A stretch of DNA of 64,000 nt from assembly GCF_056746865.1 (NCBI RefSeq), contig NZ_CM163382.1. The stretch is one strand, 5' to 3'. This document shows, in pieces, positions 49,063 through 50,372 of the stretch; the first letter of the stretch is position 1; the number at the start of each line of letters is the position of its first letter. Both the position numbers and the translations under genes were made by a program. Under the pieces are notes generated by a model that had not been told where the DNA came from, did no database searches, and saw only the letters and a program-made list of their open reading frames with translations.

Positions 49063-50007
49063 ATGGATGCACCGAGTACCACACCGCATGACGCGGTATT
49101 TAAACAATTTTTAATGCATGCGGAAACGGCTCGTGACTTTCTGGATATCCATTTGCCAGCGGAACTACGCGAACTGTGTGACCTCGACACGCTGCATCTT
49201 GAGTCGGGGAGTTTTATTGAAGAAAGCCTGAAAGGGCACAGCACTGACGTGCTCTATTCCGTGCAAATGCAGGGTAATCCCGGTTATTTGCATGTGGTGA
49301 TTGAACATCAAAGCAAGCCGGATAAGAAAATGGCCTTTCGCATGATGCGTTATTCTATTGCTGCCATGCACCGGCATCTGGAGGCGGATCACGATAAGCT
49401 GCCGCTGGTGGTGCCGATTCTGTTTTATCAGGGCGAGGCCACACCTTATCCGCTCTCAATGTGCTGGTTTGATATGTTTTACTCGCCGGAGCTGGCGCGA
49501 CGCGTTTACAACAACCCTTTCCCGCTGGTGGATATCACCATCACACCGGATGACGAAATCATGCAGCATCGGCGGATTGCGATTCTCGAACTACTGCAAA
49601 AACATATTCGCCAGCGCGACTTAATGTTATTGCTGGAGCAACTGGTCACGCTGATTGACGAAGGGTACACTAGCGGAAGTCAGTTAGTTGCCATGCAAAA
49701 CTATATGCTGCAACGCGGTCATACTGAACAAGCGGATTTGTTTTATGGTGTGCTGAGAGACAGGGAAACGGGAGGGGAGTCTATGATGACGCTGGCGCAG
49801 TGGTTTGAAGAGAGGGGAAGACAGGAAGGAAGACAGGAGGTAAGACAAGAGGTAAGACAAGAGGTAAGACAAGAGGTAATACAGGAAGTAACACAGGAAG
49901 TAAGTCAGGAATTCGCCCAGCGTCTTCTGAGTAAAGGAATGTCTCGGGAAGACGTTGCAGAGATGGCAAATTTACCCCTTGCCGAGATTGATAAGCTGAT
50001 TAACTAA
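49063..50007 (+). CDS. rpnC: Rpn-family recombination-promoting nuclease RpnC (YadD; PD-(D/E)xK / transposase_31 family)
   Basis: 314-aa ORF MDAPSTTPHDAVFKQFLMHAETARDFLDIHLP... typical Rpn N-terminus; C-terminal part contains in-frame (R/I/T/S)QEV repeats. Confidence 0.8.
   Translation: MDAPSTTPHDAVFKQFLMHAETARDFLDIHLPAELRELCDLDTLHLESGSFIEESLKGHSTDVLYSVQMQGNPGYLHVVIEHQSKPDKKMAFRMMRYSIAAMHRHLEADHDKLPLVVPILFYQGEATPYPLSMCWFDMFYSPELARRVYNNPFPLVDITITPDDEIMQHRRIAILELLQKHIRQRDLMLLLEQLVTLIDEGYTSGSQLVAMQNYMLQRGHTEQADLFYGVLRDRETGGESMMTLAQWFEERGRQEGRQEVRQEVRQEVRQEVIQEVTQEVSQEFAQRLLSKGMSREDVAEMANLPLAEIDKLIN
49816..49911 (+). repeat. rpnC: Eight tandem in-frame 12-bp repeats (gtaagacaagag and variants) inside rpnC
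   Basis: ggaagacaggaa x2, gtaagacaagag x3, gtaatacaggaa, gtaacacaggaa, gtaagtcaggaa read directly; encode RQEGRQEVRQEVRQEVRQEVIQEVTQEVSQE. Confidence 0.85.
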
Positions 50008-50075
50008 GTTGTCTGCATCATCAGTTATAGCCAGATAATTGTTATTGTTAACTGACCAGATAATTAAGGGAACCT

Positions 50076-50291
50076 ATGGAAATAAAGACACGGAGAGAAA
50101 CCAGGCAGACGTTGGCGCAGTGGTTTGAAGAGAAGGGATTTCAGAAGGGATTTCAGAAGGGATATAAAGAGGGACTCCGGAAGGTAAGGCTGGCACAGCG
50201 TCTTCTGAGTAAAGGAATGTCTCGGGAAGACGTTGCAGAGATGGCAACTTTATCTCTTACAGAGGTTGATAAGCTAATTAACTCTAACTAA
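50076..50291 (+). CDS. Stand-alone 71-aa ORF paralogous to the RpnC C-terminus (possible RpnS-like small protein or duplication remnant)
   Basis: ATG ORF; TLAQWFEE...QRLLSKGMSREDVAEMA...DKLIN near-identical to the last ~70 aa of rpnC; lies in a diverged tandem copy (50108..50300) of rpnC 3' end (49788..50016). Confidence 0.4.
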   Translation: MEIKTRRETRQTLAQWFEEKGFQKGFQKGYKEGLRKVRLAQRLLSKGMSREDVAEMATLSLTEVDKLINSN

Positions 50292-50372
50292 GTTGTCTGC
50301 GTTATGAATTATCGCTTACAGATAACATGGCAATGAATAACTGGCGCCATCAGCCGTAGCGCCAGTTAAGTA

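What the first reader, a model, noticed from the sequence alone, without database searches (positions are those of the whole stretch)
49063..50303. rpnC locus: in-frame 12-bp tandem repeats plus a partial tandem duplication of the gene's 3' end creating a stand-alone 71-aa ORF
The Rpn-family nuclease gene carries eight tandem 12-bp units (49816..49911) encoding an RQEV-type repeat. Immediately downstream, a diverged second copy of its last ~200 bp (50108..50300 versus 49788..50016, both ending ...ttaactaagttgtctgc) provides its own ATG (50076) and encodes a 71-aa protein near-identical to the RpnC C-terminus, but with a different repeat (FQKG x2). In copy 1 there are in-frame ATG ATG codons at 49783-49788, at the equivalent position. 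Rpn proteins have been reported to be toxic antiphage nucleases restrained by a small protein translated from an internal start in the 3' end of the same gene. The downstream ORF could therefore be an orphan or extra copy of such an antitoxin-like protein, or simply a slippage/duplication remnant. Either way this looks like the most rapidly evolving spot in the window.
Basis: partly seen in the sequence, partly recalled or inferred. Interest (0 to 1): 0.55.

Follow-up and report, generated by a model that had tools for sequence, protein, structure and literature searches.

The report
Known rpnC toxin–antitoxin gene plus rpnCSs

Summary
These are rpnC (49063-50007), eight in-frame 12-bp units (49816-49911), in-frame ATG ATG with a strong Shine-Dalgarno (49783-49788), and a diverged second copy of the 3' end (49788-50038 vs 50108-50325). 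The second copy carries a 71-aa ORF (50076-50291).

Zhong et al. 2023 (PNAS, PMC10400941) already describe all of it. [quoted passage not shown]

The duplication-specific junction is in 1555 of 5426 complete E. coli genomes and also in E. marmotae, with the same junction, so it arose once. The ORF was intact in all 16 complete genomes of an evenly spread sample.

One point goes beyond the paper as far as I could read it. The Ss repeat tract differs in type from that of the neighbouring RpnC and almost never matches it in length (0 of 16 sampled genomes; 1 of 14 allele pairs in a separate set). The paper shows that a one-repeat mismatch abolishes neutralisation, so Ss is probably not the cognate antitoxin of its neighbour. 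Its function is untested.

Verdict: already known; low interest.

The parts
49063..50007 (+). rpnC, full-length product RpnC_L (314 aa), a PD-(D/E)XK-type Rpn nuclease (toxin)
   Evidence: ORF. Pfam PF04754 Transposase_31, residues 7-207, E = 3.3e-87. TIGR01784 scores 280 bits against a cutoff of 52. RefSeq gene rpnC at a 100% identical locus. N-terminal 240 aa are 98.3% identical to K-12-type RpnC at the same panD-panC position.
49770..49788 (+). Shine-Dalgarno (GGGAGGGGAG, 49770-49779) and in-frame ATG ATG (49783-49788): internal translation start for RpnC_S
   Evidence: Read directly from the sequence. The protein context RETGGESMMTLAQW is identical to the K-12-type rpnC. For K-12 rpnC, ribosome profiling and SPA tagging showed RpnC_S (PMC10400941). 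Not tested in this strain.
49783..50007 (+). RpnC_S reading frame (74 aa), the gene-within-gene antitoxin
   Evidence: In frame with rpnC. Matches the C-terminal part of TIGR01784, E = 2.9e-11. The antitoxin role is taken from PMC10400941, not tested here.
49816..49911 (+). Eight in-frame 12-bp units (GRQE x2, VRQE x3, VIQE, VTQE, VSQE): hypervariable four-amino-acid repeat in the long first helix
   Evidence: Unit number varies (linker 13 to 41 aa in steps of 4) among E. coli strains.
49788..50038 (+). Copy 1 of the partial tandem duplication (3' end of rpnC plus about 31 bp of 3' flank)
   Evidence: Local alignment. Direct-repeat families D1-D3.
50039..50107 (+). Junction sequence specific to the duplication. 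It holds a 25-bp tandem (CCAGATAATT at 50031-50040 and 50056-50065), a TAAGGGA Shine-Dalgarno-like site (50065-50071) and the first 32 nt of the Ss ORF
   Evidence: Does not align to copy 1. Present in 1555 of 5426 complete E. coli genomes, once per genome as a rule. The same junction occurs in E. marmotae-type locus L031 and in all other variants.
50076..50291 (+). rpnC_Ss: free-standing 71-aa RpnS-like ORF (WP_000404121.1)
   Evidence: ORF. Annotated 'hypothetical protein' or 'RpnC/YadD family protein'. Matches the TIGR01784 C-terminal part, E = 2.7e-10. Homologues carry PF27070 HTH_Rpn_C. AlphaFold2 model shows a long helix (5-45) plus two short helices, pLDDT 71. Described as rpnCSs in PMC10400941.
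50131..50163 (+). Second, different 12-bp repeat tract (KGFQ type, 2.8 perfect copies) inside rpnC_Ss
   Evidence: Among strains the Ss linker is 17, 19, 21, 23 or 29 aa long.
50108..50325 (+). Copy 2 of the partial tandem duplication
50338..50368 (.). GC-rich hairpin (UAACUGGCGC / GCGCCAGUUA) between the convergent rpnC_Ss and panC, probably a shared terminator
   Evidence: Fold of 50292-50380: -27.6 kcal/mol, z = -3.3. The consensus scan found no terminator-like site between the rpnC stop and the Ss start.

Best explanation
This is the chromosomal rpnC locus of a duplication-bearing E. coli lineage, in the form published as rpnC plus rpnCSs.

**Shown here by sequence**
- rpnC encodes a full-length Rpn nuclease.
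- A strong internal ribosome-binding site and ATG ATG open the RpnC_S frame.
- A tract of eight 12-bp units lies just after that start, so every gain or loss of a unit changes RpnC_L and RpnC_S together.
- One ancient partial tandem duplication of the 3' end created a separate 71-aa gene with its own start codon. It has the same junction in E. coli and in E. marmotae-type loci.
- This second gene has its own, independently varying repeat tract.

**Taken from Zhong et al. 2023, not tested here**
- RpnL is a toxic DNA endonuclease.
- RpnS binds it through the long helix and blocks it.
- Matching repeat number is needed for RpnC_S to block RpnC_L.
- The system family can defend against phage.

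**Inferred**
- The 12-bp units expand and contract by replication slippage. Three units are identical, and near-identical strains differ by whole units.
- rpnC_Ss is co-transcribed with rpnC or rpnC_S, because no terminator-like or promoter-like site lies between them.
- The Ss helix differs from the neighbour's in repeat type and almost always in length, so Ss is probably not the cognate inhibitor of the resident RpnC_L. It is more likely a retained, decoupled RpnS paralogue. It could act on a different RpnC variant, or supply an alternative 3' module through recombination between the two copies.
For: - **Identity.** establish the Rpn domain, the rpnC annotation and 98.3% identity to K-12-type RpnC in the nuclease part.
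- **Published description.** (PMC10400941) cover RpnL/RpnS, the four-amino-acid repeats, rpnCSs downstream of rpnC in some strains (Fig. 2I), independent origin from rpnC, and the rule that a one-repeat mismatch abolishes neutralisation (Fig. 4D).
- **Prevalence.** The junction is in 1555 of 5426 complete genomes, always chromosomal.
- **Single origin.** The junction is identical across variants, including locus L031, which carries an Ss protein named E. marmotae by NCBI.
- **Retention.** The ORF and start are intact in 16 of 16 evenly sampled genomes. The same holds in all loci recovered through ten further Ss protein variants. Stand-alone proteins of 57-77 aa differ mostly by in-frame steps.
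- **Decoupling.** An identical Ss sits next to RpnC alleles with linkers of 29, 33, 37 and 41 aa. L and Ss linker lengths are equal in 0 of 16 sampled genomes and in 1 of 14 distinct pairs in the other set.
- **Exchange between copies.** Some Ss alleles carry an L-type helix-turn-helix tail. L030 Ss is 83 of 84 nt identical to the L tail of the single-copy strain L005.
Against: - No expression or activity data exist for rpnC_Ss in any strain. The paper shows expression only for the analogous RpnESs/YpaA.
- Constraint on Ss looks weaker than on the rpnC copy. Pooled pN/pS is 0.49 for the Ss helix-turn-helix part and 0.90 for the leader, against 0.29 for the rpnC C-terminal part. The site counts are small and the pairs are not independent.
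- 71% of complete E. coli genomes lack Ss.
- The 'non-cognate' inference extrapolates from one published experiment (plus or minus one KGIE unit on the K-12 allele) to helices of different composition.
- Foldseek did not recover the RpnA_S crystal structure. The best hits were generic helix-turn-helix proteins with E > 0.2.
Confidence: 0.8

Rival explanations
1. The 71-aa ORF is a functionless duplication remnant. It persists only because it is young or short, and it is drifting towards loss.
For: - Absent from about 71% of complete E. coli genomes, including K-12, B1 and O157 types.
- The leader's pN/pS is about 0.9, and the domain's 0.49 is higher than the 0.29 of the rpnC copy.
- PGAP flags it as a partial pseudogene in several genomes.
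- Repeat slippage in 12-nt steps keeps the frame without any selection.
Against: - The same junction occurs in E. coli and in E. marmotae-type loci, so the copy is old.
- The start codon, the Shine-Dalgarno-like site and the frame are nevertheless intact in 16 of 16 sampled genomes and in every variant locus.
- The PGAP 'pseudogene' calls are annotation choices, not lesions.
- The analogous YpaA/RpnESs is translated in K-12.
Confidence: 0.2
2. rpnC_Ss is a second cognate antitoxin. It simply raises the dose of inhibitor for the neighbouring RpnC_L.
For: It is homologous to RpnC_S and lies immediately downstream with no terminator between them. The paper treats RpnS-type proteins, intragenic or separate, as antitoxins.
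Against: - In this window the linker is 23 aa of KGFQ/KGYK type, against 37 aa of RQEV type in RpnC_L.
- The lengths are equal in 0 of 16 sampled genomes.
- An identical Ss accompanies four different L repeat numbers.
- A single-repeat mismatch abolished neutralisation for RpnC (PMC10400941 Fig. 4D).
Confidence: 0.15
3. The downstream copy serves mainly as a recombination partner, a stored alternative 3' module. Gene conversion or deletion between the copies swaps the specificity helix or tail of rpnC in one step.
For: - Tails are mosaic. Some Ss alleles carry L-type tails (L030, L035, L019), while most Ss tails form their own group.
- The K-12-type rpnC ends with two extra codons (…INLI*), like Ss (…INSN*/…INLN*) and unlike the L copy in duplication-bearing strains (…IN*).
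- The paper mentions loss of rpnSs by fusion of the N-terminal part with the Ss region.
- Database proteins exist with the L context fused to the Ss-type helix (P0018, P0020, P0026, P0028).
Against: - The fused forms I could inspect are all on short contigs that end at or near the repeat, and one carries a frameshift. They may be assembly artefacts.
- The probe search listed no single-piece perfect fusion among complete genomes.
- Mosaicism shows that exchange happens, not that it is the selected function.
Confidence: 0.2

Closest known systems
rpnC / rpnC_S / rpnCSs of E. coli (Zhong, Hickman, Storz, Dyda et al., PNAS 2023, PMC10400941)
   Same: Same gene at the same chromosomal position (panD-panC). 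Same internal start context, same kind of hypervariable four-amino-acid (12-nt) repeat, and the same free-standing downstream copy found in only some strains.
   Different: Nothing in kind. This strain's allele has eight [G/V]xQE units, whereas the K-12-type allele reads KGIEKGIQQGRQEVSQEF. K-12 has no Ss. The paper did not test rpnCSs function or, in the text available to me, compare the repeat content of Ss with that of its neighbour.
rpnE-ypaA (rpnESs) of E. coli K-12
   Same: A partial duplicate of the 3' end of an rpn gene forms a separate small gene just downstream. The product was shown to be made (SPA tag).
   Different: Independent duplication at another locus. The paper's phylogeny groups RpnESs with RpnES and RpnCSs with RpnCS.
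Type II toxin-antitoxin systems with helix-turn-helix antitoxins
   Same: A small helical protein with a helix-turn-helix-like motif binds and blocks a toxic enzyme. Specificity between pairs is narrow.
   Different: Here the antitoxin is translated from inside the toxin gene and shares its sequence. Specificity is set by repeat number in a shared helix. The extra free-standing copy is not paired with a toxin of its own.
EcoR124I/EcoR124II HsdS TAEL repeat variation (cited in PMC10400941)
   Same: The number of in-frame four-amino-acid repeats in a helix changes specificity.
   Different: There the repeat sets DNA target spacing in a restriction enzyme. Here it sets protein-protein matching between toxin and antitoxin.

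Membership tests
Rpn (YhgA-like) recombination-promoting nucleases | N-terminal PD-(D/E)XK-type domain of Pfam PF04754 / TIGR01784 | tested here: met
   PF04754 E = 3.3e-87, residues 7-207. TIGR01784 scores 280.5 bits against a cutoff of 52.1.
Rpn (YhgA-like) recombination-promoting nucleases | Orthology to K-12 rpnC (yadD): same locus and high identity | tested here: met
   Lies between panD and panC as in K-12-type strains. 236 of 240 N-terminal residues are identical.
Rpn (YhgA-like) recombination-promoting nucleases | DNA endonuclease activity and toxicity of the full-length protein | not testable with these tools
   Known for RpnA, RpnB and RpnC from PMC5350276 and PMC10400941. Not measured for this allele.
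RpnS intragenic antitoxin (gene within gene) | In-frame internal start with a ribosome-binding site in the 3' part of the rpn gene | tested here: met
   GGGAGGGGAG followed by ATG ATG at 49783-49788, in frame. Same context as K-12-type rpnC.
RpnS intragenic antitoxin (gene within gene) | Four-amino-acid repeats beginning 8-20 residues after the initiating Met, varying in number among strains | tested here: met
   The repeats start at residue 12 of RpnC_S. Linker lengths run from 13 to 41 aa in steps of 4 across strains.
RpnS intragenic antitoxin (gene within gene) | Separate translation of the small protein, and block of RpnL activity | not testable with these tools
   Shown for K-12 RpnC_S in PMC10400941. 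Not tested for this allele.
RpnSs (free-standing RpnS copy downstream of an rpn gene) | Separate ORF with its own start, directly downstream, homologous to the RpnS part of the upstream gene | tested here: met
   ORF 50076-50291. 91% nt identity over the helix-turn-helix part. TIGR01784 C-terminal match, E = 2.7e-10.
RpnSs (free-standing RpnS copy downstream of an rpn gene) | Present in some strains only, with its own four-amino-acid repeat variation | tested here: met
   Present in 1555 of 5426 genomes. Stand-alone variants span 57-77 aa. Ss linker lengths are 17, 19, 21, 23 and 29 aa.
RpnSs (free-standing RpnS copy downstream of an rpn gene) | Three-helix fold with a long first helix (RpnA_S crystal structure 7TH0) | tested here: inconclusive
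   The AlphaFold2 model has helices 5-45, 50-56 and 61-70 at pLDDT 71. Foldseek against the PDB gave only weak generic helix-turn-helix hits (E > 0.2) and 7TH0 was not among the top 50. Sequence searches of the PDB did not reach it either.
RpnSs (free-standing RpnS copy downstream of an rpn gene) | The protein is made in the cell | not tested
   Shown only for RpnESs/YpaA in K-12. A TAAGGGA site lies 4 nt before the ATG.
DUF4351 (PF14261) stand-alone RpnS-like proteins | Match to PF14261 | tested here: not met
   The Pfam scan of the 71-aa protein gave no hit with E <= 0.001. Close homologues carry weak precomputed hits to PF27070 HTH_Rpn_C instead.
Catalogued anti-phage defence systems (PADLOC-DB 2.0) | Match to a PADLOC model | tested here: not met
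   No hit for either protein. The 2023 library appears to hold no Rpn model, so this says little.

The most novel reading that the evidence does not exclude
rpnC_Ss is not an antitoxin for its own neighbour. Its helix evolves independently of the resident RpnC_L/RpnC_S pair and almost never matches it in length. It may therefore be kept for one of two reasons. It could neutralise non-self RpnC variants that arrive by recombination. Or it could be a stored alternative specificity module that replaces the 3' end of rpnC in a single recombination step, resetting toxin and embedded antitoxin together.
Probability: 0.25. Interest if true: 0.5.

Novelty: already known. Interest (0 to 1): 0.2.

Why it matters
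The locus is a clear natural example of a toxin and antitoxin encoded in one reading frame, with a slippage-prone repeat that changes both together. That is published. The open question is small but testable: why do about 29% of E. coli genomes, and E. marmotae, keep an extra antitoxin-like gene whose repeat tract does not match the toxin beside it? An answer would bear on how specificity in Rpn systems diversifies, and on whether spare antitoxin modules have a role of their own.

Tried and rejected
- **Fusion probe.** I searched complete genomes with the L context joined to the Ss-type helix to count L/Ss fusion alleles. The tool joins nearby pieces into one place, so normal duplication-bearing loci also scored 100% coverage. 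The counts are uninformative. No single-piece perfect match headed the list.
- **Apparent fusion proteins (P0020 and similar).** Their contigs end at or near the repeat, and one has a frameshift. I treat them as possible assembly artefacts, not evidence.
- **Metagenome chimera L048.** It combines an RQEV-type L with a K-12-type Ss and flank. I set it aside as a possible mixed-strain assembly.
- **PDB sequence searches.** Searches with the protein and with a 20-sequence profile did not find RpnA_S (7TH0). Foldseek with the model gave only weak helix-turn-helix hits.
- **PADLOC.** No hits.
- **Pfam scan of the 71-aa protein.** Nothing significant.
- **Promoter and terminator scan.** Nothing on the + strand beyond chance, so transcription signals remain inferred.
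- **Supplementary files of the paper.** Not held, so I could not see its Figs S3C and S6 on RpnCSs.
- **Extending the duplication upstream of 49788/50108.** Local alignment stops there. A faint protein-level resemblance (RDRET vs RRET) is only a hint.
- **pN/pS.** Based on few sites and non-independent pairs, so used only as a weak indication.

Full report
**What is in the sequence**

The region lies between panD (48409-48789, minus strand) and panC (50373-51224, minus strand). It holds a 314-aa ORF at 49063-50007 and a 71-aa ORF at 50076-50291, both on the plus strand. The whole 1583-bp interval is 100% identical to E. coli strain 118UI. There the genes are annotated rpnC ('Rpn family recombination-promoting nuclease/putative transposase') and 'hypothetical protein' WP_000404121.1. 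Another genome names the same small protein 'RpnC/YadD family protein'.

The large protein has the Pfam PF04754 domain (E = 3.3e-87, residues 7-207). It passes the TIGR01784 Rpn-family cutoff. Its first 240 residues are 98.3% identical to K-12-type RpnC at the same locus.

**Check of the observation**

- Eight in-frame 12-bp units occupy exactly 49816-49911 and encode GRQE x2, VRQE x3, VIQE, VTQE, VSQE.
- ATG ATG at 49783-49788 is in frame, with GGGAGGGGAG 3 nt upstream.
- The second copy is real. Local alignment pairs 49788-50038 with 50108-50325, running about 31 bp beyond each stop codon.
- The helix-turn-helix part is 91% identical over 91 nt and 26 of 30 residues.
- The repeat tracts differ. 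The small ORF has a perfect 12-bp x 2.8 array at 50131-50163 of KGFQ type.
- The 69 nt between the copies (50039-50107) align to nothing in copy 1. They supply a TAAGGGA ribosome-binding-like site and a new start codon. The original ATG ATG start of RpnC_S is not part of copy 2.

**It is already described**

Zhong et al. 2023 (PNAS; PMC10400941) report the following.
- All five E. coli K-12 rpn genes have an internal translation start that yields a small C-terminal protein, RpnS.
- For RpnA and RpnB, the cognate RpnS blocks the toxicity of the full-length protein. Purified RpnAS blocks the endonuclease activity of RpnAL.
- For RpnC, adding one repeat to either partner abolishes neutralisation, and adding it to both restores it.
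[quoted passage not shown] 2I, named rpnCSs). This parallels ypaA/rpnESs downstream of rpnE.
- The copy arose from rpnC itself. It can be lost by deletion or by fusion of the N-terminal part with the Ss region.
- Expression was shown for RpnESs, not for RpnCSs. I found no functional test of either.

A search for later work found only the accompanying commentary.

**Population picture**

The junction-specific segment (50012-50112) is present in 1555 of 5426 complete E. coli genomes. It is always chromosomal and nearly always present once per genome. K-12, B1-type, O157 and some B2 strains have a single-copy locus.

The protein database holds stand-alone 'MEIKTRRET…' proteins of 57-77 aa, mostly differing by in-frame steps. 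They include proteins named E. marmotae and other Escherichia. The junction sequence is the same in every variant locus I aligned, including the E. marmotae-type locus L031. The only difference is one 25-bp unit missing in L035. The duplication therefore happened once and is old.

In an evenly spread sample of 16 Ss-bearing complete genomes, the rpnC frame, the Ss start and the Ss frame are intact in all 16. This includes genomes where PGAP labels the ORF a partial pseudogene.

**Repeat polymorphism**

The variable stretch, defined here as the linker running from just after the conserved WFE motif to just before the R(L/F)L motif, is 13, 17, 21, 25, 29, 33, 37 or 41 residues long in RpnC_L. 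In Ss it is 17, 19, 21, 23 or 29 residues.

Strains that share the identical Ss of this window have RpnC alleles with 6, 7, 8 or 9 units. Three of the eight units in the window are identical at the DNA level. Both points fit replication slippage.

**What the extra copy may or may not do**

Across the 16 sampled genomes the L and Ss linkers are never the same length. In the independent set obtained through Ss protein variants, 1 of 14 distinct pairs is equal (L019, 29/29).

In this window the contrast is 37 residues of RQEV type against 23 residues of KGFQ/KGYK type. The window-type Ss is also two residues off the 4n+1 length series followed by every RpnC_L. Because a one-repeat mismatch abolishes neutralisation for RpnC, I infer that Ss is probably not the cognate inhibitor of the neighbouring RpnC_L. 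This is an inference from one experiment on another allele, not a result.

Evidence on selection is weak. Pooled pN/pS is 0.49 for the Ss helix-turn-helix part, 0.90 for its leader and 0.29 for the corresponding part of rpnC.

There are signs of sequence exchange between the two copies. Most Ss tails group apart from L tails, but L030, L035 and L019 carry L-like tails. The K-12-type rpnC ends with two extra codons, as Ss does. Apparent L/Ss fusion proteins in the database sit on short contigs that end at or near the repeat and may be artefacts.

**Structure and signals**

An AlphaFold2 model of Ss, built from a 20-sequence alignment, gives a long helix (5-45) and two short helices (50-56, 61-70) at mean pLDDT 71. 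This fits the published description of RpnA_S. Foldseek, however, gave only weak generic helix-turn-helix matches. PDB sequence searches did not reach 7TH0.

No promoter-like or terminator-like site lies between the rpnC stop and the Ss start. A strong hairpin at 50338-50368 sits between Ss and the convergent panC. Co-transcription of Ss with rpnC or rpnC_S is therefore the simplest reading, and it is inferred.

**Verdict**

The residual question is why an antitoxin-like copy that does not match its neighbour is kept. It is modest and testable by a toxicity-rescue assay with this allele.

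Noticed in passing
L011, L026, L032, L041 (loci related to window 49063-50291): The RpnC nuclease reading frame is interrupted, while the internal RpnC_S frame and the downstream Ss ORF remain open. 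This would fit toxin loss with the antitoxin parts retained. Several of these loci are short-read or low-quality assemblies, so sequencing errors are possible.
   Followed up: partly
window 50076-50291 and loci L049-L064: RefSeq/PGAP annotates the same small ORF in four ways: 'hypothetical protein', 'transposase', 'RpnC/YadD family protein', or a pseudogene 'missing N-terminus' that starts 30 nt inside the ORF. The ORF is intact in every case checked.
   Followed up: yes
window 50031-50065: The junction of the duplication contains a 25-bp tandem marked by CCAGATAATT at 50031-50040 and 50056-50065. Locus L035 has only one unit, so this small repeat is itself polymorphic.
   Followed up: partly
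window 50186-50198 (…KVRLAQ): Ss alleles of the window type read KVRLAQ where other Ss alleles read KVRQEFAQ, a 6-bp difference. This puts their linker length (19 or 23 aa) two residues off the 4n+1 series followed by every RpnC_L allele seen.
   Followed up: partly
window 50338-50368: A GC-rich hairpin (stem UAACUGGCGC/GCGCCAGUUA) lies 5 nt from the panC stop, between the convergent Ss and panC genes. It is probably a shared terminator (z = -3.3 for 50292-50380).
   Followed up: partly
L006 (E. coli O157:H7), between rpnC and panC: This single-copy locus has an insert of roughly 215 bp with long palindromic stretches between rpnC and panC. The insert is absent from the window and from K-12-type loci. 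It looks like an intergenic repeat element, but I did not identify it.
   Followed up: no
window 49781-49969 (-) and 50074-50247 (-): Antisense ORFs of 62 and 57 aa run across both repeat tracts. They look like by-products of the repeat composition rather than genes.
   Followed up: no
L054 (strain IPCEC42), panC: panC next to the locus is annotated as frameshifted in this genome.
   Followed up: no
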